Assembly (NCBI RefSeq): GCF_004010195.1
Contig: NC_057718.1
Location: 52,180,238 to 52,244,237, forward strand
Direction of reading: 5' to 3'
DNA length: 64,000 nucleotides
DNA from: Chiloscyllium plagiosum
Lineage: Eukaryota
The notes beneath the pieces are model-generated. The model did not search any database and had not been told where the DNA came from. It saw nothing but the letters and a program-made list of their open reading frames with translations. Shown here piece by piece: positions 7,046 to 63,619 of the stretch (position 1 is its first letter; the number at the start of each line of letters is the position of its first letter). A program made the translations under genes and the position numbers.

Positions 7046-7084
7046 CTGTGAGCACATATGACATTGAAATGTGATGTTATGGTG

Positions 7085-8132
7085 GTTTGGGCTATGCATG
7101 CAATGACTAGTGGTGTGTCTCAGGGATCAGTGTTGGGACAGCAATTATTCACAATTTACATAGATGATTTGGAGTCGGGGACCACGAGTAGTGTGTCAAA
7201 GTTTGCGGATGATACTAAGATGAAAGGTAGAGCAAAGTGTGCAAAGGACTGTGAAACTTTGCAAAGGGACTTAGGTAGTATAAGTGAGTGGGCAAAGGTC
7301 GGGCTGATAGATTACAATGTAAAAAATGTGAAGCCATCCATTTTGGCAGGAATAACAGTGAAAAGGACTATTATTTGAATGGTTTAAAAAAAAACTACAA
7401 CATTCTGCTGCGCAGAGGGACCTGGGTGTCCTTATGTGTGATTCACAGAATGTTGGTCTGCAGGTGCAACGGGTAATTAAGAAGGCAAATGGAATTTTGT
7501 CCTTCATTGCTAAAGGGATTGAGTTTAAAAGCAAGAAGGTTATGTTGCAGCTGTATAGGGTGTTGGTGAGGCCACACCTGGAGTGCTGCGTTTAACTTTT
7601 GTCTCCTTACTTGAGAAAGGATGCACAGGCGCTGGAGGGGCTGCAGAGGAGGTCCACTAGGTTGATTCTGAAGTTGAGGGGGTTGGCTTATGAGGAGAGA
7701 CTGAGTAGACTAGGATTATATTCATTGAAATTTAGAAGAATGACAGGGGGGTCTTATGGAAACATATCAACTTATGAAAGGAATAGATAAGGTTGAAGTG
7801 GAGAGGATGTTTCCACTGGCGGGTGAAACTAGGATGAAAAGGCATAGCCTCAAGATTAGAGGGAGCAGATGTAGGACCGAATTCAGAAGAAACCTCTTCA
7901 CCTAGAGGGTTGTGAATCTGTGGAATTCCCTGCCCAGTGAAGTAGTTGAGGTTTCTTCATTGAATGCTTTTTAAGATAAGATAGATAGGTTTTTGAATAG
8001 TAAATGGTGAGATGGTAGGTGAGTGGGGCTGAGGCCATGAAAAGATCAGCCACGGTCTTATTGAATGGCAGTAGAGGCTTGAAGGGCCAGATGGCCTATA
8101 CCTGCTCCTAGTTCTTATCTTAGGTTCTTATG
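7085..8132 (+). mobile_element. CR1 LINE, 5'-truncated degenerate RT and 3' end
   Basis: [41 protein letters not shown]; tail gttcttat. Confidence 0.93.
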
Positions 8133-20883: not shown

Positions 20884-21088
20884 AGTTAAGATTAGAGTGG
20901 TGCTGGAAAAGCACAACAGGTCAGGCAGCATCCAAGGAACAGGAAAATCGATGTTTCAAACCATTCAAGGGCTCCTGCCCGAAACGTCAATTTTCCTGCT
21001 CCTCGGATGCTGCTTGACCTGCTGTGCTTTTCCAGCACCACTCTAATCTTGACTGATCTCCAGCGTCTGCAGTCCTCATTTTCGCCTA
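20884..21088 (+). mobile_element. PLE family A palindromic insertion
   Basis: Arms aagattagagtggtgctggaaaagcac... / ...gtgcttttccagcaccactctaatctt, tail gatctccagcgtctgcagtcctc; degenerate ~23-bp TSD agttgtcataacctgtgctgagt / agttgattatagcctgctctgatt. Confidence 0.85.
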
Positions 21089-21683
21089 GTTGATTATAGC
21101 CTGCTCTGATTCAAAGGTCCATAATAGGGATCCAGTGTTTTTGAAAACATATGTTATGTCTAAAACTGGTGTTTCCAACATCATGTGTTATCAGTTCTTT
21201 AAAATTATGGAGTTGTGCACTGTTGTGGTACCTTTTATTTATTACCTTTACAAGCAATAGAGTTTGTAGTGAAAATAATGGCATGATGATCAGCGCTCAC
21301 CATTATTTAGCATTAAACCAGACATCAATTTCTGATTCCATGATGTTATGGCAATCATAACGCACAACACATGATAGAAATCAGAATTTGCCTTGCATGT
21401 TTCTTAGCTCATCCAGAGGTTTTGCTCTGCGTCCATCATGCTAAGATATCCATGGAAGATGTCAGTTTAAGATGCCTATCCACTAAAACAAGTTAGGAAC
21501 AGACCGTATAGGCACAACTGAGTTTTAAATATTGTGTTCAGTCACAGCCAACAAGCTCTGCATTGTAAATTTACTTCTAAAAGAGTACAGTTTTGTTCAG
21601 ATTTCTTTTATTTATTTATTTTCAAAATTCAAAGAAGTTAAAACAATGTTTAAACTTTCGCTTTCCATATCTTCTTTCACTTA

Positions 21684-29071: not shown

Positions 29072-29299
29072 CTTAGAAATGAAGAAAATCTTAACTAGTT
29101 AATCCTTGCCATATGTTCAATGTTTTATTACAATTTTATACTCAAAATAAACATGTACTTTAAAAGAGAAAGGAATTGAAAGAACACAAAGGATTTCAAT
29201 TGGAAAAGTATTATGAATTTTAAGTACTTAACTCTGGAGATGATGTATTTTCCCTCTATGGTCTGATAGAGGTTTCTAAAGTTCTGAAGAGTTTTTATA

Positions 29300-29514
29300 G
29301 TCGAGAGTGTGGTGCTGGAAAAACACTGCAGATCAGATGGCATCTGAGGAGCAGGAGAATTGATGTTTTGGGCATAAGCCCTTCATCAGGAATTTCGGGC
29401 TTATGCCTGAAACGTCAATTCTCCTGCTCCTTGGATGTTGCATAACCTGCTGTGCTTTTCCAGCACCACACTCTCAATTCTGATCTCCAGCATCTGCAGT
29501 CCTCACTTTCTCCT
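29300..29514 (+). mobile_element. PLE family A palindromic insertion
   Basis: Inverted arms around cttcatcaggaatttcgggc; tail ctgatctccagcatctgcagtcctcactttctcct; 19-bp TSD with 3 mismatches (29284-29302 / 29517-29535). Confidence 0.88.
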
Positions 29515-30739
29515 CCCTGAAGTGTCTTTTTAGTCTATTCCTTGGTGAGGTATTGGAGATAAGTGATCTTCAACATAAGATTGCCAGCAAGAGTGTGGTA
29601 AGAATTTGGAAGAAATTTCTTAATTACAGGCAGAGCTGAGAAGGGCATAATTATGCCTTTTCAGGGAGAAACACGATCAAATATTAGAATCAGAGAAATC
29701 ATGGGGTTGATGGTGAGAGGTCAGAGCAGTAGTAGCTATTTTGGGCATATTCACACTAAATACAGACATAATGGGCCACATATCTTCCTTCTGCACTGCA
29801 ATCCTCTATGCTTTTATTGGATGAGTACTTAATATTCATAGTGTTAACATTTCTTTTTATTTAACATTCAATTCAGTAAATATTTCATTTTGGCACAATG
29901 CAGCTTCAGATTTTCTTGCAAATAATTTGTCTGTGTGTATAAAGCAGAAACTAAGTGCATGCAATGTTCTCATTTGTGTCAAATTACCAACCACTGTTTC
30001 CAGAATTGATTTCATACAATTTCCATGTCAAACATTTTTATTTTGACACAAAATGTGACAACATAGATATAATCATTGCCAGTTTCCAACTTCAGCCACT
30101 ATTACTTTAATGTGTGAGGCTACTTTATAGTTTCTACCATAATTAATAACATGGAACATATCTTATAACTTGAACCAATTTTATCAAAAAGAAGCATAAT
30201 AAAAAGTATGTGTCCACAGGTATTCCCAAATAACTAATAGAGTCTGTGACAACAAAGATCATTGACATTTGGAGGTGTGTGGGAGATGAAACCCCTGCTG
30301 TGCCCCATGCCATTCGGAGCTACACACTGAAGTTGCAGCAAGTAATTTGGTAGAGTTTCCAGAGGCTATACACTGCTGTATGCAGAATTTATCCAGGCCA
30401 TGAGCGGGTTCACATTTCAGACATAAATTTATGGCTTCTTCTATAAAGATGTTGTCAACCCTGATCCAGCAGATCATTGAACGCTTGTGAGAGGTGCAGA
30501 CATACTTTCATACCTTGACCTTGCCTCTGAACTCAACAAAGGAAAATCAGATGGGGAAGAGGCATCTGTATTCTCCTCCAGTTCTACTGGGGTGGTAAGG
30601 CTGTGCCTTGCAAGGGAGCAGAAGTGGCTGGCTTCCATATCTGGGGAGACGAGCACTTCAGTATTACAGTGTCAGAGAGGTTTCTCTTGTATAGAAGATT
30701 CTCAGTACGTCATAACTCTCTCGGCTCTTTAGCAACCAG

Positions 30740-31039: not shown

Positions 31040-31779
31040 AAAGAGAAAAAAAAACTGCAGATGCTTTGGAAAGCAAATCTTAGCAGGACTTATACATTTA
31101 ATGGTAAGGTCCAAGGGAGAGTTGCTGAACAAAAGGACCTTGGAGTGCAGGTTCATAGCTCCTTGAAAGTGGAGTCGCAGGTAGATACGATAGTGAAGAA
31201 GGTGTTCCTTTATTGGTCAGAGTATTGAGTACAGGAGTTGGGAGGTCATGTTGCGGCTGTACAGGACATTGGTCAGGCCATTGTTGGAATATTCTGTGCA
31301 ATTCAGGTCTCCTTTCTTTCGGAAAGATGTTGTGAAACTTGAAAAAGATTTACAAGAATGTTGCCAGGGTTGGAGGATCTGAGCTACAAGGAGAGGCTGA
31401 ACAGGCTGGGGCTGTTTTCCCTGGAGCGTCAGAGGCTGAGGGGTGACATTATAGAGGTTTACATATATGAATAGGAAGGGTTTGGAGGGATATGGGCTGG
31501 GTGCTGGCAGGTGGGACTAGATTGAGTTGGAATATCTGGTCGGCATGGACGGTTGGACCGAAGGGTCTGTTTCCATGCTGTACATCTCTATGACTTTATG
31601 ACTCAATGCTGAAATCCAAAATAGACAGGCAGGAGGCTGAAAGAACACAATAGCAAGATGTGGAGAAGTCGATGTTTCGGGTGTAACCTTTCTTGGGGTT
31701 ACACCTGAAATGGCGACTTCTCCACCTCCTGATGCTGCCTGGCTCACTGTGCTGTTCCAGCTTTCTGCCTGTCTATTTT
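31040..31779 (-). mobile_element. PLE palindromic insertion (third variant) split by a CR1
   Basis: Tail aaaactgcagatgct at 31050-31065 resumes atgctgaaatcc at 31606; arms aaaatagacaggcag / ctgcctgtctatttt; TSD ctattttctcaagYgt (31024-31039 / 31773-31788). Confidence 0.82.
31066..31605 (+). mobile_element. CR1 3' fragment with internal deletion
   Basis: KANLSRTYTFNGKV..EQKDLGVQVHSSLKV; ctctatga tail. Confidence 0.92.
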
Positions 31780-32065: not shown

Positions 32066-33315
32066 TACTTGATAGAGTTTTTTGAAGAAGTAACAAAGAG
32101 GATTGATAAGGGCAGAGTGGTAGATGTGATCTATATGGATTTCAGTAAAAAAAGGTTCTCCATGGAAGACTGGTTAGCAAGGTTAGATCTGTGAAATACA
32201 GGGAGAACGAGCCATTTTGATACAGAACTGGCTCAAAGGTAGAAGACAGAGAGTGGTGGTGGAGGGTTGTTTTTCAGACTGGAGGCCTGTGACCTGTGGA
32301 GTGCCACAAGGATCTGTGCTGGGTCCACTAATTTTCATCATTTATATAAATGTTTTGGATGTGAGCATAAGAGGTATAGTTAGTAAGTTTGCAGAAGACA
32401 CCAAAATTGGAGGTGTAGTGGACAGTGAAGAACATTACGTCAGATTACAATGGGATCTTGATGAGATGGGCCAATGGGCTGAGAAGTGGCAGATGGAGTT
32501 TTACTTTAGATAAATGTGAGGTGCTGCATTTTGGGAAAGCAAATCTTAGCAGGACTCATACACTTAATAGTAAGGTCCTAGGGAGTATTGCTGAACAAAG
32601 AGACTTGGAGTGCAGGTTCATAGCTCCTTGAAGGTGGAGTCACAGGAAGATAGGATAGTGAAAAAGACATTTTGTATGCTTTCCTTAATTGGTCAGAGTA
32701 TTGAGTAGAGGAGTTGGGAGGTCATGTTGCGGCTGTATAGGACATTGGTTAGGCCACTTTTGGAATATTGCATGCAAATCTGGTCTCCACCTTTTAAGAA
32801 GGATGTTGTGAAACTTGAAAGGGTTCAGAAAAGATTTACAAGAACGTTGCCAGGATTAGAGGATTTGAGCTATAGGGAGAGGCTGAATAGGCTCGAGCTG
32901 TTTTCACTGGAGCATCAGAGGCTGAGGGGTGATCTTATACAGGTTTATAAAATCATGAGGAGCATGGATAGGATAAATAGAGAAAGTCTCTTCTCTGGGG
33001 TGGAAAAGTCCAGAACTAGAGGGCATAGCTTTAGGGTGAGAGGGGAAAGATATAAAATAGACCTAAGGAACAACTTTTTCACACAGAAGGTGGTATGTGT
33101 ATGGAATGAGCTACCAGAGGAAGTGGTGGAGGCTAGTATGATTGCAACATTTAAAAGGCATCTGGTTGGGTATATGATTAGGAAGGGTTTAGAGGGATAT
33201 GGGCCAGGTGCTGGCAAGTGGGACAAGATTGGGTTGGGATATTTGGTCAGCATGGACAAGTTGGACCGAAGCATCCGTTTTCGTGCTGTACATCTCAATG
33301 ACTCTCTGACTCTAC
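32066..33315 (+). mobile_element. CR1 LINE, 5'-truncated RT and C-terminus
   Basis: GVPQGSVLGP, SKFAEDTK, LYRTLVRPLLEYC, RLRGDLIQVYK; frameshifted. Confidence 0.95.
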
Positions 33316-35094
33316 TAACAATTGCTGATTAAATTTGTTCAGTTCTGCCCAGATGAGATTTCAATCAGCAGCTGTGAGTTCACCAGTTTGTAAAAAGTGC
33401 ATTTAGGATTTCTTGTGTGTATATCTATATATCAGCTCTTCTGAAAAAAAGTGTTTATTGCCATGTTTTGTCCATTGTTTCGTGGTAAATTAAATACTAT
33501 GGCATTGAATAGATTAATGCTTTCCTTGTATGTTGGGATATTAATTTAATAGAGGCTCAATTATTATTAAGATATTGATGGATTCCTCTCTTTCTTTATG
33601 AAAGTCTAAATACTTCTTATATGAAGACAAAAATCAAAGGGAAATGTTCCTATTTGTTTGCATATTCTAATAAACATCTTAGTGAAAATGAAGACACGTA
33701 AATGCTGAATACCGAAAAATAGCTTCCATAAATTAAGTAGCTGTCCAAAAAGAAAATTGTTTGAATCTCAGGCCCTTATTTTTAATACAGGGGTGTCATC
33801 ATCCTATCCCATCTGCTGTCCCCATCCTGCACATTTTCCTCATGAGATGAGCTGCAACATTCATATTACGTTCCTGATGCAAGATCCCTCCCTCTGTGCA
33901 GTGCAAGGTTTACAAATCATAACTAAACAGACCGACATTACTTCACCACTACATCTCTGCAGCTGGCTAAGGAATAAATATCCAGATTGCTGACATGCAG
34001 AGAAATACCAGAGAGAAGGCATCTGCTCAGCCCTAGACAAGAGAGGACACTACAATGTCAGCAGTTTGTCACTCAGTTGATGTGCACAAGAGAAGCTGGC
34101 AGGTATTTTAGGGCAACTTGAAAGTACCTTTCTGATACCCATTGGAAACTGAACAGCTTCAGACATTAGAGTCAACTGCCTCCACGGATAGTTGCTGGCT
34201 GCCTCAGACAGTCAGGTCCAGCAGCCTCATGTGTATCACCTTTACTGTACGGGAGTCTATAACCTTCTCTGCATCCCAGCAAACTGCCTCCAAACCACAC
34301 AATTGAGTTTCACAGCTTCCTTCCCATCACAGTGCACCCTAATAAACTATCCCCACTCCTGATTTTTTTTAAACAAATGGACAGCCCTGAATGATGAGCA
34401 ACCAGACTCTGGAATGACTTCCATACAGCACCCCAGCCATCTTTACTCCAGGAGTGAATACACTGCGCCTCTGGAGCCAGACTGTAGAGGCACATACCTC
34501 CCAGCTGTGACTGCCCCAAGCTGTCGACTGATCATGTCCGCGCCCCTTGATGAATATTGGAATCTGCTTTTGACTTCCTCTGCTGGGACCCCTGAATGGA
34601 TGAGTGTGACCCTTGACTAAGGACTACTTCCTTTAGTCTCTGTGATATGGCTGTTTGATTGAAGTATTGGCGCATACATGACTGGTACATGAGCAGGAGA
34701 GAGATTGATATCACATGGTGCCATTTAGCAACATGTCCAGGCCCTTGATGGACCATTGATACCAACCATGACAAGCTGGCTTTGTGTCTGCACCAAAAAA
34801 CAAGGCAGGGCAGCAATACTGTTAGCCTTTAAGGTCTGGCTGAGGAGGCAAAGTACAAAAGGGCAAAATAAGGCAGGGAGATGCACTGTGATCCAGTACA
34901 TAAAATGGTTCCGAGTCCCAGTTGCAAAGTATCTTTGCAATAGCACTACAATGAGAGGTGCTGACATGCTCTACTGTGCAGCATTGAAGTGGAGAACCAT
35001 TCTGTCAATGATTTGGAGGTGTGCTAGGAGAATGCACTGAGGCTGGTATGTGTTGAATGCCAAGGTCTGAAGCCATGGGTTGCATGCAGTCACT

Positions 35095-35310
35095 ACTGTA
35101 GTGCTAGAGAAGCACAGCAGATCAGGCAGTATCCAAGGAGGAGGGGAATCAACATTTCGGGCAAAAGCCCTTCATCAGGAATGAGGCCTCATTTCTGATG
35201 AAGGGTTTTTGCCCGAAACATTGATTCTCCTGCTCTTCGGATGCTGCCTGACCTGTGTGCTTTTCCAGCACCACACTCCTGACTCTGATCTGCAGTCCTC
35301 ACTTTCTCCT
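35095..35310 (+). mobile_element. PLE family A palindromic insertion with hammerhead motif in both arms
   Basis: Axis tcaggaatgaggcctcatttctga; CTGATGA-AGGG..GCCC-GAAA on both strands; perfect TSD tgcatgcagtcact (35081-35094 / 35310-35323). Confidence 0.9.
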
Positions 35311-35516
35311 GCATGCAGTCACTGCCCATGTGATATGATCTAATTCCATAATTGGACAATGTGGGCTGCATAATACAGAGAGGGTGAAAGAATTTGTCAA
35401 CAATCTAGGATTGTCAGTCAGGTTTGCAGTATTGCACACTTGTGTGTACTGGGAGCGACATATACAAATAGACAGGGCCCTGTTCTTTGCAGATAGAAAG
35501 AACACAAAAAGAACAG

Positions 35517-44611: not shown

Positions 44612-45090
44612 ACTAGGAGACAATGGGGACTGCAGATGCTGGAGAAATCAGAATTGATAAAGTGTGGTTCTGGAAAAGGCACAGCAGGTCAGGCAGCATC
44701 CGAGGAACGAGAGTCAACATTTCGGGCAGGAACCTTCTTCAGGACTGGAGGGGGGGAAGGGGGTTGAGATATAAATGGGGGAAAGGGGGGGGGGGTTTAG
44801 AGGAAAGGTAGGCGATAGGTGGGCATAGGTAGGAGGTAATAGTGATAGATCGGTGGGAAGTGTGGAGCCGATAGGTGAGGAGGCAGATGGATGGGTAGGT
44901 CAGGTCAAGAGGGTAGATCTGAGTCGGAGGATTGCATCTGGGATTGGGTGGGAGGACTGGAGATTTGTAAATCAGTGAATTCAATGTTCACGCCGTGCGG
45001 TTTTAGGCTCCCAAGATGGAAGACGAAGTGTCCTCCTTTAGTTTGTGGGTCTCCATCTTCCTTCCCACCTCTTGCTCCTTGGATGCTGCC
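44612..45090 (-). mobile_element. Penelope-like element family A: ORF C-terminus, 3' UTR, hammerhead motif and short inverted arm
   Basis: Minus peptide GHFVFHLGSLKPHGVNIEF resembles the PLE GIY-YIG C-terminus; AGTC-CTGAAGA-A-GGTT(CCT)GCCC-GAA-ATGT-T-GACT at 44712-44746; inverted arm 45071-45090. Confidence 0.85.
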
Positions 45091-45249
45091 ATCATCAGGT
45101 CCATTCTGCAAACTACAGGTTTCACACTCTGAGGCTACCAAAACCTAGGTGAGTAGATGCAGTTGATTATTTAAATGGCCAGTAGCCTCCAAGAAACATC
45201 TATGTGGGAAAAACAAACTTTCCTCATTCCTGCCTCTGGGAAAATGGGA

Positions 45250-50017: not shown

Positions 50018-51980
50018 ATAAAGATAAAAGAGAAGTATAACATAGCAAAGATGAGCAGGAAGCCAGAAGACTGTGAAACATTTAAAGAGCAACAGAGGGT
50101 AACTAAAAAGGCAATACGTGGAGAAAAAATTAGGTACGAAAGCAAACTGGCCAAAAATGTAAAGGCAGATAGTAAAAGCTTTTTTAGGTATGTGAAAAGA
50201 AAAAAAAAATGGTTAAGACTAAAATTGGCCCCTTGAAGACAGAAGCGAGTGAACTTATTATGGGCAACAAGAAAATGGCAGAACAGTTGGATAGGTACTT
50301 TGGATCTGTCTTCTCTGGGGGAGACACAAGCCAACTCCCAGATGTAATGGTGGATGAAGAACTTAGGGTAATGGATGAACTGAAGGGAATTTATATTAGG
50401 CAGGAAGTGGTGTTGGATAGACTGTTAGGTCTGAAGGCTGATAAGTCCCCGGGACCTGATGGTCTGCATCCCAGGGTACTTAAGGAGGTGGCTCTAGAAA
50501 TCGTAAATGCATTGGTGATCATTTTTCAATGTTGCATAGATTCAGGATCCGTTCCTACAGATTGAAGGGTGGCTAATGTTGTCCCACTTTTCAAGGAAGG
50601 AGGGAGAGAAAAAACAGGGAATTATATAGACCAGTTAGCCTGATGTCAATGGTGGAAAACATGCTGGAGTCAATTATAAAAGATTAAATTATGACTCATT
50701 TGGATAGCAATAACAGGATAGGACAGAGTCAGCATGGATTTGTGGAGGGTAAATCATGCTTGACTAATTTTCTGGAATTTTTTGAGGATGTAACTATGAA
50801 GATGGACAAGGGAGAGCCAGAAAGATGCAGTGTACCTGGACTTTCAGAAAGCCTTTGATAAAGTCCCACGTAGGAGATTAGTGAGCAAAATTAGGGCACA
50901 TGGTATTGGGGGCAAACTACTGACTTGGATTGAAAATTGGCTGTCTGACAGGAAGCAAAGAGTAGTGATAAACGGATCTCTTTCAGAATGGCAGGTAGTG
51001 ACCAATGGGGTACCACAAGGTTTGGTGCTGGGACTGCAGCTGTTTACAATACACATAGATGAAGGTTATTAAAAATAATATTAGCAAATTTGCTGATGAA
51101 ACAGCGCTGGGTGGAAGGGTGAAATGTGAGCAGGATGTTATGAGAATACAGGATGACTTGGACAGGCTAGGTGAGTGGATGGATGCTGGCAGATACAGTT
51201 TAATTTGGATAAATGTGTGGTTATCCACTTTGGTGACAAGAACAGGAAGGCAGATTACCAACTAAATGGAGTCAAGTTAGGTAAAAGGCAAGTACAACAA
51301 GATCTAGGTGTTCTCGTACATCAGTTAATGAAAGTAAGCATGTAGGTACAGTAGGCAGTAAAGAAAGCTAATAGCATACTGGCCTTCATAACAAGAAGAA
51401 TTGAGTATAGGAGCAAAGAGGTCCTTCTGAAGTTGTACAGGGCCCTGGTGAGATTGCACCTGGAGTATTGTGTGCAGTTTTGGTCTCCAAATTTCAGGAA
51501 GGCCATTCTGGCTATTGAGGGAGTGCAGTGTAGGTTCACAAGGTCAATTCCCGGAATGGCGGGACTATCATAGGTTGAAAAATTGGAGCAACTGGGCCTG
51601 TATACACTTGAGTTTAGAAGGATAAGAGGAGATCTGATTGAGATGTATAAGATTATTAAAGGATTGGACACTCTGGAGGCAGGAAGCATGTTTCCGCTGA
51701 TGGAGGAGTCCAGAACCAGAGGACACAGTTTAAAAATAAGGGGGAGGCCATTTAGAACAGTGATGACGAGAAACTTCTTCACCCAGAGAATGGTGCATAT
51801 ATGGAATGCTTTGCCCCAGAAGACAGTGGTGGGCTAATCAATGGATACTTTCACGAAAGAGATGGATAGAGCTCTTAAAGATAGTGGAATCAAGGGCTAT
51901 GGATACTGATTGCGGATGATCAGCCATGAACGTACCGAATGGCCTACTCCTGCACCTGTTGTCTGTTGTCTATTGTCTAT
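50018..51980 (+). mobile_element. CR1 LINE ORF2 fragment, ~2 kb, frameshifted
   Basis: KSPGPDGLHPRVLKE, YLDFQKAFDKVP, KFADET; (gtctatt)n tail; tgact duplicated at 50013-50017 / 51981-51985. Confidence 0.96.
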
Positions 51981-52015: not shown

Positions 52016-53820
52016 AAAAGGGTAACTAAAGAGAGAATAGAGCCCCTCAAAGATCAGCAAGGCGGCTTTTGTGTGGAGCCGCAGGAGATGGGGGAGATAC
52101 TAAATGAGTATTTTGCATCAGTATTTACTGCGGAAAAGGATATGGAAGATATAGAATGTAGGGAAATAGATGGTGACATCTTGAAAAATGTCCATATTAC
52201 AGAGGAGGAAGTGCTGGATGCCTTGAAATGCATAAAAGTGGATAAATCTCCAGCATCTGATCAGGTTTACCCGAGAACTCTGTGGGAAGCTAGAGAAGTG
52301 ATTGCTGGGCCTCTTACTGAGATATTTTGCATCATTGATAGTCATAGGTAAGGAGCTAGAAGACTGGAGGTTGGCTAATGTGGTGCCACTGTTTAAGAAA
52401 GGAGGTAAGAACAAGCCAGGGAACTATAGACCGGTGACCCTGACATTGGTGGCAGGCAAGTTGTTGGAGGGAGTCCTGAGGGACAGGATGTACATGTATT
52501 TGGAAAGGCAAGGACTGATACGGGATAGTCAACATGGCTTTGTGCATGGGAAATCATGTCTTACAAACTTGATTGAATTTTTTGAAGAAGTAACAAAGAA
52601 GATTGATGAGGGCAGAGCAGTAGATGTGATCTATATGGACTTCAGTAAGGCATTTGACAAGGTTCCCCATGGGAGACTGGTTAGCAAGGTTAGATCTCAT
52701 GGAATACAGGGAGAACTAGCCATTTGGATACAGAACTGGCTCAAAGGTAGAAGACAGAGGGTGTTGGTGAATGATTGCTTTTTAGACTGGAGACCTGTGA
52801 CCAGTGAAGTGCCACAAGGATCGGTGCTGGATACACTACATTTATAAAAACGATTTGGATGTGAGCATAAGAGGTTTAGTAAGTTTGCAGATGATACCAA
52901 ATTGGAGGTGTAATGGACAGTGAAGAAGGTTATCTCAAATTACAATGGGATCTTGATGAGATGGGCCAATGGGCTGAGAAGTGGCAGATGGAGTTTAATT
53001 TAGAGAAGTGGCAGATGGAGTTTAATTTAGATAAATGTGAGGTGCTGCATTTTGGGAAAGAAAATCTTCGCAGGACATAGACACTAATGGTAAGGTTCTA
53101 GGGAGTGTTGCTGAACTAAGAGACCTTGGTTCATTGCTCCTTGAAAGTGGAGTTGCAGTAGATAGGATAGTGAAGAAGACATTTGGTATGCTTTCCTTTA
53201 TTGGTTAGAGTCTTGAGTACAGGAGTTGAGAGGTAATTTTGCAGCTGTACAGGACATTGGTTAGGCCACTGTTGGAATATTGTGTGCAATTCTGGTCTCC
53301 TTCCTATCAGAAAGATGTTGTAAAACTTGAAAGGGTTCAGAAAAGATTTCCAAGGATGTTGCCAGCGTTGGAGGATTTGAGCTATAGGGAGAGGTTGAAT
53401 AGGCTGGGACTGTTTTGCCAGAAATGTTGGAGGCTGAAGGGTGACCTTATAGAGGTTTTTTAAATCCTGAGGAGCATGGATAGGTGAAATAGAGAAAATA
53501 TTTTCCCTTGGGTGGGGGAGTCCAGAACTAGAAGTCATAGGTTTAGGGTGAGAGGGGAAAGACATAAAAGAGACCTAAGGGGCAACCTTTTCATGAGAGG
53601 GAGTGCATCTTTGAAATGAGCTGCCAGAGGAAGTGAGGCTGGCACAATTGCAACATTTAAAAGGCATTTGGATGAGTATATGAATAGGAAGGGTTTGGAG
53701 GGATATGGGCCAGGTGCTGGCAGGTGGGACTAGATTGGGTTGGGATATCTGGTCAGCATAGACAAGTTGGACCGAAGGGCCTGTTTCCGTGTTGTACATC
53801 TCTATGACTCTACGACTCTA
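52016..53820 (+). mobile_element. CR1 (HER1-type) LINE ORF2 fragment, ~1.8 kb, frameshifted
   Basis: WRLANVVPLFKKG..PGNYRPV..QHGF..SCLTNL..YMDFSKAFDKVPH; ctctatgactctacga tail. Confidence 0.96.
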
Positions 53821-60605: not shown

Positions 60606-61200
60606 CATAGGAATCAAGCTGTTTCAACGTTTATCATATCAGTTTCTTTCAGAGGTGTAAATGCAAGGTGGTACAAGTGAGAAAGTAAATGGTTTTCAAG
60701 GACATCTGTCCATTGAAACTAATTTTGCAGGCATGATAATAAACCCCCACAGAACAGACCCTAATTCGAACACAAAATCTTATGCATTAACACAAAATCT
60801 CTTGATAGTTTCCCTATGGTTTTATTTTTATCATTTTCAGAAATGAAATCCAATTTCTTTTATGTAAGAGCACTGCATAACCTAGGGAGATAAGATAATA
60901 GTAAGCTGTGGAATGATTAAACATAGATGGATCATATGCAATTTCAGTAATTTTTCCCAGTGAGGTAGATGTTTCTTTTCTGAAAGAACAACTTCCATTT
61001 CAATCATATAACTTATTCAGGAAAATGTAATAAGGCTTAGAGGTTGAAGAAAGACGGACATCAAATCAAAAAAAGAATAAAAGATTGGGTAGCAAAGGCT
61101 AGCCAACAAAAAGACTTTTAAAGAAGCTTTTGGAAGCAGGGATGCAGTTGGTAAAATAGAGGAATTTCAACAGTGAGTTCCTGAGGGGAGATGTAATGTT

Positions 61201-61481
61201 CTCAAAGATAAAAGGTGATAAAATAAGGAAAAAAAAACAGGCGTTAAATAATTGAAGAGCACATTTGGAATGTGCAGCCACAGGGAGTTTTTAGATTGGG
61301 GAAGTAAGGTATGAAGCAATTTAAGGTTGGATTCAAGATACTCAAAGATAAAAGGTGGTAAAATAAGGAAAAAAAAACAGGCATTAAATAATTGAAGAGC
61401 ACATTTGGAATGTGCAGCCACAGGGAGTTGTTTTGATTGGGGAAGTAAGGTATGAAGCAATTTAAGGTTGGATTCAAGATA
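61201..61481. repeat. Tandem duplication, 2 x ~140 bp
   Basis: Copies at 61201-61340 and 61341-61481 differ at only a few positions. Confidence 0.95.
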
Positions 61482-61589: not shown

Positions 61590-62900
61590 AATGCCGATGT
61601 AGACCAACACCTACAAGTTCACTTTCAATTGGTTCAGTCAGATCAATGGAGTAGCAATATGTACCCTTATATTACCTTTGAGATTGTATATGAGCACCGG
61701 GTTGTTCTATATTCCTTGATCTGTTCTGGGTGGCCACAACTGCACTCTGGAGAGCTTTCCATTTTTCATTTATGCGCCAAACATTTGCATCTGTCATGGT
61801 TGCTGCAGATTTGATTTATCACGGCCCCAAAGCTGAGCTGAACATCAAAACCAGGTACTTTCAACAAATGTCTTTTTTGAGGTGTTTGTGATTTCTAGTG
61901 AACACACTTCAGCTTTTTGAGCTTTATTAAAACAAAATTTATCATGATCTAACTTAAGGTTATTGTGTCCAAAAGGGTTTGTGCTTCTTTAAATGTTTTT
62001 TCAGTGACATTGTTGAGGTTCAGGTAAATTACTTCATTTCCTGGACTTTCCCAAAGGTTTGGGGCATCATGCTGAATGGAGGGACAGAAGTGTGTGACTG
62101 CTCATGGGAGTTTGGAGTTAGGCTACACAACACAACACAATACAACAGTGATGTCCAGATAAACATTTCGAACTTGAACATTGTTATTTATGGTCTGTAC
62201 TGGTGTATGGCTGTGGAGTACACAAAGACCACCACTGATAAACAAGGCACTGTGTTTGCCACTCTCAGCTGGTGTTTGTTAGTATCTGCCTGATTGGGGA
62301 GGCACAATAGCACTATGGTAAGCACTGTTGCCTCACAGCACCGGGGACCCAGGCTCAATTCCAGCCTCGGGTGACTGTCTGTGTGCAGTTTGTACATTCT
62401 CCCCGTGTCTGCATAGGTTTCCACTGCGTGCTCTGGTTTCCTCCCACAGTCCAAAGAAATGCAGGTTGGGTGGATTGACCATGCTAAATTGCCCATAATA
62501 TCCAAGGATGTGTAGGCTTGGTGGATTAGCCATGGGAAATACAGGGCTACAGAGACTGGGTAGGGAGGTGGGCCTGGGTGGGATGCTCTTTGGCAAACTC
62601 AATGGGCTGAATGGACTGCTTCCATACTGTAGGAATTCTATGATCGTCTGTTGTCTTCATAGCGGCAGCTAGTTTCTCCAGTTAGTCAAGGAATGATTAA
62701 CAGTTCAGCTATACTCCAATATAAGTTAGAGTGGGATTGTGTCACATTGCAAAAATGGTGAACACTTGCAAGGTGTATTGAGTGTTTATGTTATCAAGGT
62801 GGAATGCAGTGACTTGTGCTTTAGAAGTTCAGTTTGAGAATCTATTTCCATAAATATTGCTCCGTGGTATTTAGTTTTCTATCCTTTCATTACTAAAGGA
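61590..62900 (-). mobile_element. Ingi/Vingi-like LINE remnant, interrupted by a SINE
   Basis: Minus peptides KAQVTAFHLDN..YIGV*LN, LSVVVFVYSTA and NQICSNHDRCKCLAHK*KMESSPECSCGHPEQ (C-terminal zinc finger) in the expected order. Confidence 0.7.
62297..62643 (+). mobile_element. HE1-type V-SINE
   Basis: agcactgttgcctcacagcaccggggacccaggctcaattccagcctcgggtgactgtctgtgtg, V domain, attctatga tail. Confidence 0.9.
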
Positions 62901-63227
62901 AGTCATCTGCACTAAAACTTCAAACTACCTGGTACACTTAGCTACCTAATGCTGCTGATCTGTGATCTATCGAAAGCTTTAAATCAAATTAGACACAGAC
63001 TTCTGGTATAATTTAAAATACTGTATCCATTAGGAGGATGCACTGATTCAAAGTGATTTGCTAAAAGTAGCAAATGTATTGAGAAAAATATTGTTCAGAC
63101 AGTGAGTGATTCATTTTCAGATTAGAATTTATGAGTACAGTGACAGATCAGGAAAATGTTGAGGGGATTGTGTTATCTGGACTCTTTTTACCATGAGGCA
63201 ATTACATCTCTGAGGATAAAGCCTCAA

Positions 63228-63264
63228 TCTGATCTCCAGCATCTGCAGTCCTCACTTTCTCCTA
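63228..63264 (+). mobile_element. Isolated PLE family A tail
   Basis: tctgatctccagcatctgcagtcctcactttctcct; flanking tcaatctgat / tcaacctgat. Confidence 0.8.
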
Positions 63265-63409
63265 GTCAACCTGATTTGCGCAGTGTTCTGGGAGAGAAGA
63301 GTACAATTACAAGAGAGAGCAGTAAGGAGACTTAGGAGGGAGGAGCGCAGGAACCTCAGTCTTTGCAGCTGTCCAACAGATCGAATTTCTTTCAGCTTGC
63401 TTGGATGAC

Positions 63410-63589
63410 AGTTGAAACTTTATTGCTGGAACAGCACAGCAGGTCAGGCAGCATCCAGGGAACAGGAGATTCGACGTTTCGGGCACAGGCCCTTCTTCAG
63501 GAATGCTGGATGCTGCCTGACCTGCTGTGCTGTTCCAGCAATAAAGTTTCAACTTTGATCTCCAGCATCTGCTGACCTCACTTTCTCCT
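63410..63589 (+). mobile_element. PLE family A palindromic insertion, young
   Basis: Perfect arms agttgaaactttattgctggaacagcacagcaggtcaggcagcatccag and its reverse complement; TSD tggatgacagt (63402-63412 / 63589-63599). Confidence 0.9.
63469..63504 (-). ncRNA. Minimal type I hammerhead ribozyme motif with intact core
   Basis: Minus strand ATTC-CTGAAGA-A-GGGC(CTGT)GCCC-GAA-AC-GT-C-GAAT: helix I 4 bp, helix II 4 bp, palindromic ACGT helix III, GUC cleavage triplet. Confidence 0.82.
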
Positions 63590-63619
63590 GGATGACAGTC
63601 CAGGCTAAGGATCGATGAG

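What the first reader, a model, noticed from the sequence alone, without database searches (positions are those of the whole stretch)
63469..63504. Intact minimal hammerhead ribozyme motif that would need to dimerise
Seen: full core CUGAAGA...GAAA...GUC with paired helices I and II, one extra A after A9, and a helix III made only of the loop-less palindrome ACGU. Established: Penelope-like elements carry minimal type I hammerheads with palindromic helix III that act as dimers, and an extra nucleotide between A9 and G10.1 is tolerated. Inference: it lies on the same strand as the putative pseudogene, so a transcript across it could self-cleave only with a partner copy.
Basis: partly seen in the sequence, partly recalled or inferred. 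Interest (0 to 1): 0.7.

Follow-up and report, generated by a model that had tools for sequence, protein, structure and literature searches.

The report
Hammerhead in young Penelope retrotransposon fragment
The tiny self-cleaving RNA motif is real, but it is the standard cargo of a very common Penelope-like jumping gene in a shark-like genome, and it looks intact because this 176-base fold-back copy jumped in recently, not because the host uses it.

Summary
The motif is exactly as described (minus strand 63504-63469; predicted cut between 63473 and 63472) and is not chance. It lies in a 176-bp insertion (63413-63588) flanked by an 11-bp target-site duplication. Contigs of two related organisms hold the empty site. 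The insertion is an inverted, 5'-truncated pLTR piece joined head-to-head to a direct piece with a 34-nt tail, the known footprint of endonuclease-positive Penelope-like elements. A sister copy in the window still carries the end of an RT-GIY-YIG ORF like shark Penelope-like proteins. Family pieces occur at 8 places in the window. Only this arm, 1 of 11 aligned, keeps the whole core plus the ACGU helix III. Youth explains that: its arms are identical (0 of 49 mismatches). A transcript would fold into a 49-bp hairpin with the ribozyme in the loop. No tandem partner is in view, the computed dimer is not favoured, and one RNA run showed no reads on the unique flanks and no pile of ends. Verdict: a known kind of ribozyme in a dead-on-arrival transposon copy, probably inactive at this locus.

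The parts
63469..63504 (-). Minimal type I hammerhead motif: helix I 4 bp, helix II 4 bp plus tetraloop, extra A after A9, loop-less ACGU helix III
   Evidence: Sequence; fold; pattern and chance control
63472..63473 (-). Predicted cleavage site, 3' of C17 (63473)
   Evidence: One search match ends at 63473; position by the standard hammerhead numbering; cleavage not shown
63402..63412 (+). Left copy of the 11-bp target-site duplication; its last 3 nt also pair with the direct arm (possible priming microhomology, inferred)
   Evidence: family D7; present once in organisms B and C (table 8)
63589..63599 (+). Right copy of the 11-bp target-site duplication
   Evidence: family D7, 100% identical
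63413..63505 (-). Inverted, 5'-truncated pLTR piece (93 bp); begins 5 nt before C3 of the hammerhead and ends without the tail
63506..63554 (+). Direct pLTR piece; perfect 49-nt inverted repeat with 63410-63458; starts 14 nt after the position of the cut site, so it has no ribozyme
   Evidence: 0 of 49 mismatches
63555..63588 (+). 34-nt 'tail' present on the direct arm only
   Evidence: tail of 30-40 bp described in PMC3846280 and PMC8557442
44612..45171 (-). Longer, older sister copy: decayed C-terminal end of the RT-GIY-YIG ORF, pyrimidine-rich spacer, decayed hammerhead, tail
   Evidence: About 83% identical to the 63k arm; phmmer hit P0002 E 6e-5; tblastn of P0003 E 2e-10 within the window
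35095..35309 (.). Older fold-back sister copy with two head-to-head hammerheads (each with a changed helix III) and a 14-bp target-site duplication
63216..63263 (+). Older tail-only fragment of the same family, 150 bp away, without a hammerhead; also covered by contigs of organisms B and C
   Evidence: (D1)

Best explanation
This is the pLTR hammerhead of an endonuclease-positive Penelope-like retrotransposon (probably Neptune type), carried in a short dead-on-arrival copy that inserted after organism A split from organisms B and C. Shown: the insertion limits, the target-site duplication, the empty site, the fold-back with a tail, and kinship to an RT-GIY-YIG element. Inferred: the element's protein nicked both target strands 11 nt apart and primed reverse transcription at its two start sites about 34 nt apart; the two short cDNAs stopped early and were joined head-to-head. 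In the parent element the ribozyme probably cuts tandem precursor RNA as a strand-swapped dimer through ACGU, or with help from the element's protein. At this locus it is a passenger: intact because young, clamped in a hairpin loop, with no tandem partner in view, and very likely silent.
For: 11-bp duplication and 49-nt perfect inverted repeat. Empty site: X9 record 17 and X18 record 2 join window 63401 directly to 63589. Flank divergence from those contigs is 2.7% and 4.4%, so the neutral chance that 15 core bases are still unchanged is about 0.5-0.8 (rough). Family pieces at 8 places in the window, and summed contig depth over the element about five orders of magnitude above the unique flanks in 3 of 3 contig runs (not a copy number). 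Arm mismatches 0 of 49 here, against 13 of 88, 14 of 79, 7 of 73 and 6 of 35 in the four older fold-backs; older cores are broken mostly by G-to-A and C-to-T changes at CpG positions or by truncation. Sister copy at 44.6-45.2 kb matches shark proteins with RVT_1 and GIY-YIG. The read-through C-terminus of P0004 aligns with the translated hammerhead itself (9 of 14 identical). Architecture matches PMC3846280 and PMC8557442 (passages); two RT start sites flank the tail in PMC11167929. Active dimer computed 1.1 kcal/mol above two monomers at standard state, and 5.5 kcal/mol above the best duplex fold.
Against: This copy has no ORF, and no full-length parent element could be seen because no genome is held; the link to RT-GIY-YIG runs through a sister copy about 83% identical. 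The sequence beyond 64000, which is upstream on the ribozyme strand, is out of view, so a tandem partner there is not excluded. This copy has a perfect 4-bp helix I where most sister arms have a U-U mismatch, though that variant is common in the family (place 63470). The energy model ignores magnesium, coaxial stacking and tertiary contacts. The RNA test was weak: about 2 in 100 of one poly(A) single-cell run. Whether the insertion is fixed in organism A is unknown (X5 does not span it).
Confidence: 0.88

Rival explanations
1. The locus is transcribed on the minus strand and the RNA is cut in trans. It pairs with another family RNA through ACGU, or two copies of the fold-back swap arms (hairpin to duplex), which would hold two cores in register as a double hammerhead.
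For: The core is fully intact. Family RNA covering the hammerhead region is present in a poly(A) run, 2276 reads laid, in both directions. The arm-swapped active duplex is computed within 1.1 kcal/mol of two hairpins at standard state. A same-strand sister arm at 35095-35187 keeps the catalytic bases, with a wobble helix III.
Against: Near-zero dimerisation energy at 1 M means almost no dimer at cellular levels. A 49-bp hairpin forms as the RNA is made and must melt to swap. In the duplex an inactive fold is 5.5 kcal/mol lower. No reads on the unique flanks and no pile of ends. Even dimers cleave slowly in vitro (PMC4209133), and no RNA-seq ends were found at the Anolis site (PMC11167929).
Confidence: 0.07
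2. If the locus is transcribed, its effect comes from the 49-bp double-stranded hairpin (Dicer or ADAR substrate), not from the ribozyme.
For: The hairpin is extremely stable on both strands (z -14.7 and -12.5) and scores like microRNA precursors below their cut-offs.
Against: No evidence of transcription of this copy. A-to-G and T-to-C counts in the RNA run (8 and 7 places) lie within the range of the three contig runs (7-15 and 2-9), and those reads come mostly from other copies.
Confidence: 0.04
3. A host-domesticated ribozyme that regulates a nearby pseudogene or gene transcript, or a chance match.
Against: The insertion is absent in organisms B and C, which leaves no conservation to explain. 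No host gene was found in 424 frames. Chance is excluded and by homologous copies.
Confidence: 0.01

Closest known systems
Minimal hammerheads (min-HHR) in pLTRs of metazoan Penelope-like elements (Cervera and De la Pena 2014, PMC4209133)
   Same: Same consensus: CUGANGAH, G10.1-C11.1, GAAA, palindromic CG, NUH, short helix I, no loop III. Many rows of their alignment read C G U C at helix III. They report most motifs as single copies from truncated elements, and pairs 100-700 bp apart on opposite strands.
   Different: No shark name was found in the 2 supplementary files searched (file 1 was not searched, and the text of file 2 was read in part 2 of 3 only). Helix II here is 4 bp, at the short end of their range.
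Endonuclease-positive Penelope-like element insertion unit with inverted pLTR and tail (Arkhipova et al. 2013, PMC3846280; Craig et al. 2021, PMC8557442)
   Same: Inverted 5'-truncated pLTR next to a direct one, head-to-head; 30-40-bp tail on one end only; short target-site duplication (8-10 bp there, 11 here).
   Different: This copy is only 176 bp and has no ORF.
PAc (Poseidon) element of Anolis carolinensis (Frangieh et al. 2024, PMC11167929)
   Same: Hammerhead in the pLTR; both target strands cut and extended; two RT start sites delimit the tail. Its ribozyme needs the protein, is dispensable for insertion in vitro, and leaves no RNA-seq ends.
   Different: PAc is Poseidon clade. The shark relative P0003 has a CX4CxxC linker between RT and endonuclease, which PMC8557442 ties to Neptune (and a similar motif to Nematis).
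Non-LTR retrozymes (Li et al. 2026 preprint 10.64898/2026.07.22.740005)
   Same: Non-coding, pLTR-derived, type I hammerhead; reported in the one chondrichthyan sampled.
   Different: Retrozymes are head-to-tail tandem repeats with a hammerhead in each unit; this is a single fold-back with one hammerhead.

Membership tests
min-HHR of Penelope-like elements | Core C3-A9 (CUGANGA), G12-A15.1 (GAAA), U16.1-H17 | tested here: met
   all 14 positions checked match
min-HHR of Penelope-like elements | One extra nucleotide between 9 and 10.1; G10.1-C11.1 pair | tested here: met
   Extra A, then G-C; feature list in PMC4209133
min-HHR of Penelope-like elements | Palindromic 15.2-16.2, no loop III | tested here: met
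   C15.2-G16.2 within ACGU
min-HHR of Penelope-like elements | Helices I and II can form | tested here: met
   4 bp each in the lowest-energy fold; inside the hairpin, helix II pair probability 0.96-0.97 but helix I only 0.20-0.26
min-HHR of Penelope-like elements | Lies in the pLTR, downstream of an RT-GIY-YIG ORF | tested here: met
   Shown through the sister copy at 44612-45171 and proteins P0003 and P0004, not in this copy itself
min-HHR of Penelope-like elements | Self-cleaves as a dimer or with protein, not as a monomer | not testable with these tools
   Needs in vitro assay; energies only; no pile of read ends in one weak RNA test
EN+ Penelope-like insertion unit | Inverted 5'-truncated pLTR adjacent to a direct pLTR | tested here: met
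EN+ Penelope-like insertion unit | 30-40-bp tail at one end | tested here: met
   34 nt here; 34, 41 and 37 nt by the same rough measure in three sister fold-backs; the fourth (31.7 kb) is too short and diverged to show it
EN+ Penelope-like insertion unit | Target-site duplication with an empty site in relatives | tested here: met
   11 bp; empty in 2 of 2 other organisms laid
Autonomous Penelope-like element | RT-GIY-YIG ORF in the copy | tested here: not met
   176-bp insertion, no Pfam hit in the frames across it
Neptune clade | CX2-5CxxC linker between RT and endonuclease | tested here: inconclusive
   Present in relative P0003, two steps removed from this copy; no tree was built
Non-LTR retrozyme | Head-to-tail tandem units, each with a hammerhead | tested here: not met
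   One intact motif in the window, no tandem unit; sequence beyond 64000 unseen
Rfam hammerhead families | Covariance-model hit | tested here: not met
   None at gathering score or at E up to 10; that these models expect a looped helix III is recalled

The most novel reading that the evidence does not exclude
Fold-back Penelope copies like this one could be self-assembling dimer scaffolds. Two transcripts that swap their 49-bp arms place two ACGU half-helices in exact register for a double hammerhead. Thousands of young shark copies could then cut host RNAs that run through them, in a dose- or chaperone-dependent way, which should leave a deficit of intact sense-strand copies in introns.
Probability: 0.05. 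Interest if true: 0.55.

Novelty: new member of a known kind. Interest (0 to 1): 0.14.

Why it matters
As it stands it matters little: one more copy of a motif class described in 2014, in a family that fills this genome. Its modest use is as a clean, young, dated example (known empty site, identical arms) for two open points: whether minimal Penelope hammerheads cut at all in vivo, and how fold-back insertions with a tail arise from two priming events. It would matter more only if the arm-swapped duplex proved active, because a very large number of copies would then be potential cutters of host RNA.

Tried and rejected
Rfam: no hammerhead hit; the mir-15 and other microRNA-like scores (best 49.9 bits, cut-off 57.3) are explained by the perfect inverted repeat and were rejected. 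Search for the 'pseudogene': Pfam on 424 frames gave only RT fragments and two sub-threshold hits; three frames at 58.2-59.0 kb had no PDB match; the decayed coding-like stretch at 61670-61894 found no homologue, and its likeness to a LINE C-terminus is recalled only. A word-based homologue search with the 44.9-kb fragment found nothing; the full phmmer search then gave one hit. No RNA holder was listed for the stretch, which is no evidence either way. Run X5 of organism A does not span the insertion, so polymorphism could not be judged. The idea that ribozyme cleavage sets the 5' end of the copies was rejected for this window: by my reading, none of the 10 arms of the 5 fold-backs begins at the cut; 4 begin 4-8 nt before C3, a fifth does if its core is read as deleted, and the rest begin in helix II or further downstream. 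The '21k_inv' row of the core table is misaligned; one search shows that this arm lacks the 5' core. Lunse et al. 2017 on dimer cleavage is not held; I saw only its title and a review's summary. Literature searches for a shark-specific report and for twin priming in pLTRs found none, in a library that lacks most subscription papers; supplements of the 2026 preprint are closed and may list this family.

Full report
Observation. The minus strand at 63504-63469 holds a complete minimal type I hammerhead: 4-bp helix I, the CUGAAGA box, one extra A, a 4-bp helix II with a tetraloop, GAAA, and a helix III reduced to the palindrome ACGU before C17. The core pattern occurs once in the window against a mean of 0.04 in 100 shuffles, and a descriptor with both helices occurs once against 0 in 300 Markov simulations. 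The bare fold is not more stable than shuffles, and Rfam has no hammerhead hit.

The motif sits in a 176-bp insertion, 63413-63588, between two identical 11-bp copies at 63402-63412 and 63589-63599. Contigs from two other organisms join window position 63401 directly to 63589 (X9 record 17, X18 record 2), so the site is empty there and the repeat is a true target-site duplication. The insertion has two head-to-head parts. One is an inverted 93-bp piece that starts 5 nt before C3 and carries the ribozyme. The other is a direct 83-bp piece that starts 14 nt past the position of the cut and ends in a 34-nt extension that the inverted piece lacks. The shared 49 nt form a perfect inverted repeat, so either strand folds into a long hairpin with the ribozyme region in a 47-nt loop.

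Family. Related pieces lie at 8 places in the window (12.2, 20.9, 29.3, 31.7, 35.1, 44.6, 63.2 and 63.4 kb), five of them fold-backs; the one at 35.1 kb has a 14-bp duplication. Summed contig depth over the element is about 2-5 million, against about 7-20 on the unique flanks, in 3 of 3 contig runs. That is no copy number, but the family is plainly very large. The copy at 44612-45171 extends upstream of its decayed hammerhead into the end of an ORF. That fragment found one protein among 1.84 billion (P0002, E 6e-5), labelled whale shark by its source. Its longer relatives P0003 (whale shark) and P0004 (zebra shark) came. P0003 has RVT_1 (below cut-off) and GIY-YIG (above cut-off) matches and aligns back to 45171-44911 at E 2e-10. 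The predicted C-terminus of P0004 runs on into the repeat and aligns with the translated hammerhead of this locus (9 of 14 identical). P0003 has a CX4CxxC linker, a Neptune-type mark according to PMC8557442 (passages). The genome is therefore shark-like by inference; Penelope-like elements are reported as expanded in whale shark introns (10.1101/443036, passages).

Why this copy is intact. Of 11 arms aligned over the ribozyme region, only this one keeps all 14 checked core and helix III positions; one row was misaligned, and that arm lacks the 5' core. The others are truncated or carry mostly G-to-A and C-to-T changes at the CpG positions; two (35k inverted, 44k) keep the catalytic bases with a wobble helix III, and the 44k copy also has a broken helix II. 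This copy's arms differ at 0 of 49 positions, against 13 of 88, 14 of 79, 7 of 73 and 6 of 35 in the older fold-backs. The flanks differ by 2.7% from organism B and 4.4% from organism C. If the insertion were as old as the A-B split, the neutral chance of an unchanged 15-nt core would still be about 0.5-0.8, depending on the CpG rate assumed. No selection is needed.

How it most likely works. Shown: limits, duplication, empty site, fold-back, tail, kinship to an RT-GIY-YIG element. From the literature: inverted pLTRs, tails of 30-40 bp and short duplications are the usual Penelope-like insertion unit (PMC3846280 and PMC8557442, passages). The Anolis protein cuts and extends both target strands and starts reverse transcription at two sites that delimit the tail (PMC11167929, parts 1-2 of 4). 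Inferred: two priming events, one at each start site, gave two short cDNAs that were joined head-to-head; 3 nt shared between the duplication and the template end would fit priming microhomology. For the ribozyme, PMC4209133 (parts 1-2 of 4 and part 2 of supplementary file 2) gives the same consensus and reports no monomer cleavage and low dimer cleavage for the one minimal motif tested. PMC11167929 reports cleavage only with the element's protein, no need of it for insertion in vitro, and no RNA-seq ends at the site.

Is it active here? Probably not. No intact tandem partner lies in the window, though sequence upstream of 64000 is unseen. In the nearest-neighbour model the active strand-swapped dimer is -13.1 kcal/mol against -14.2 for two monomers. 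In full context it is -205.7 against -206.8 for two hairpins, with an inactive duplex at -211.2; helix I has a pair probability of only 0.20-0.26 in the hairpin. These numbers ignore magnesium and tertiary contacts. In RNA run X21 (about 2 in 100 read) 2276 reads were laid, 96% ran on into unlike sequence, depth on the unique flanks was zero, and no place had a pile of ends. So family RNA exists, in both directions, but this copy shows no sign of expression; the test is weak, since a poly(A) single-cell library would show cut ends poorly.

Most novel reading left open. Because the arms are self-complementary, two transcripts that exchange arms would hold two cores in the register that a double hammerhead needs. 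The model puts this about level with two hairpins at 1 M, which makes it unlikely in a cell without a chaperone. I give it 0.05.

Earlier notes of this scan (unchecked AI notes) reached the same reading for other windows of this genome; they are not independent support. One lead, that 5' ends cluster just upstream of the motif and not at the cut, fits 4 or 5 of the 10 fold-back arms here.

Verdict. Observation confirmed; interpretation partly supported; a new member of a known kind; interest 0.14.

Noticed in passing
window 35081-35323: Fold-back sister copy with a 14-bp target-site duplication and two nearly complete hammerheads head-to-head on opposite strands, both starting 8 nt before C3 at a palindromic junction.
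   Followed up: partly
window 20885-21090, 29298-29516, 31640-31775, 35095-35309, 63413-63588: All five fold-back junctions fall in or right beside the hammerhead; none of the 10 arms starts at the predicted cut site.
   Followed up: partly
window 63470 (plus strand): The family is split at this base: this copy's variant gives a perfect 4-bp helix I, the other a U-U mismatch; the share of the mismatch variant among laid contigs differs by run (about 62%, 89%, 28%, biased by likeness to this copy).
   Followed up: no
window 61670-62200, minus strand: Decayed coding-like stretch ending in a cysteine/histidine pattern that resembles a LINE C-terminus (recalled); no homologue found.
   Followed up: partly
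window about 230-1500: GC-rich tandem repeat with a 21-nt period that leaves long open frames on both strands.
   Followed up: no
window 7052-7375, 32187-33329, 50188-51069, 52302-52844, plus strand: Reverse-transcriptase fragments (Pfam RVT_1), CR1-like by recall.
   Followed up: no
window 61200-61480: A direct duplication of about 140 bp visible in the sequence.
   Followed up: no
window 62991: A 6-bp deletion in the contig of run X5 (organism A, another sample) relative to the window.
   Followed up: no
window 63416-63548: The hairpin scores 49.9 bits against the mir-15 model (cut-off 57.3), from the perfect stem plus a seed-like word; judged incidental.
   Followed up: partly
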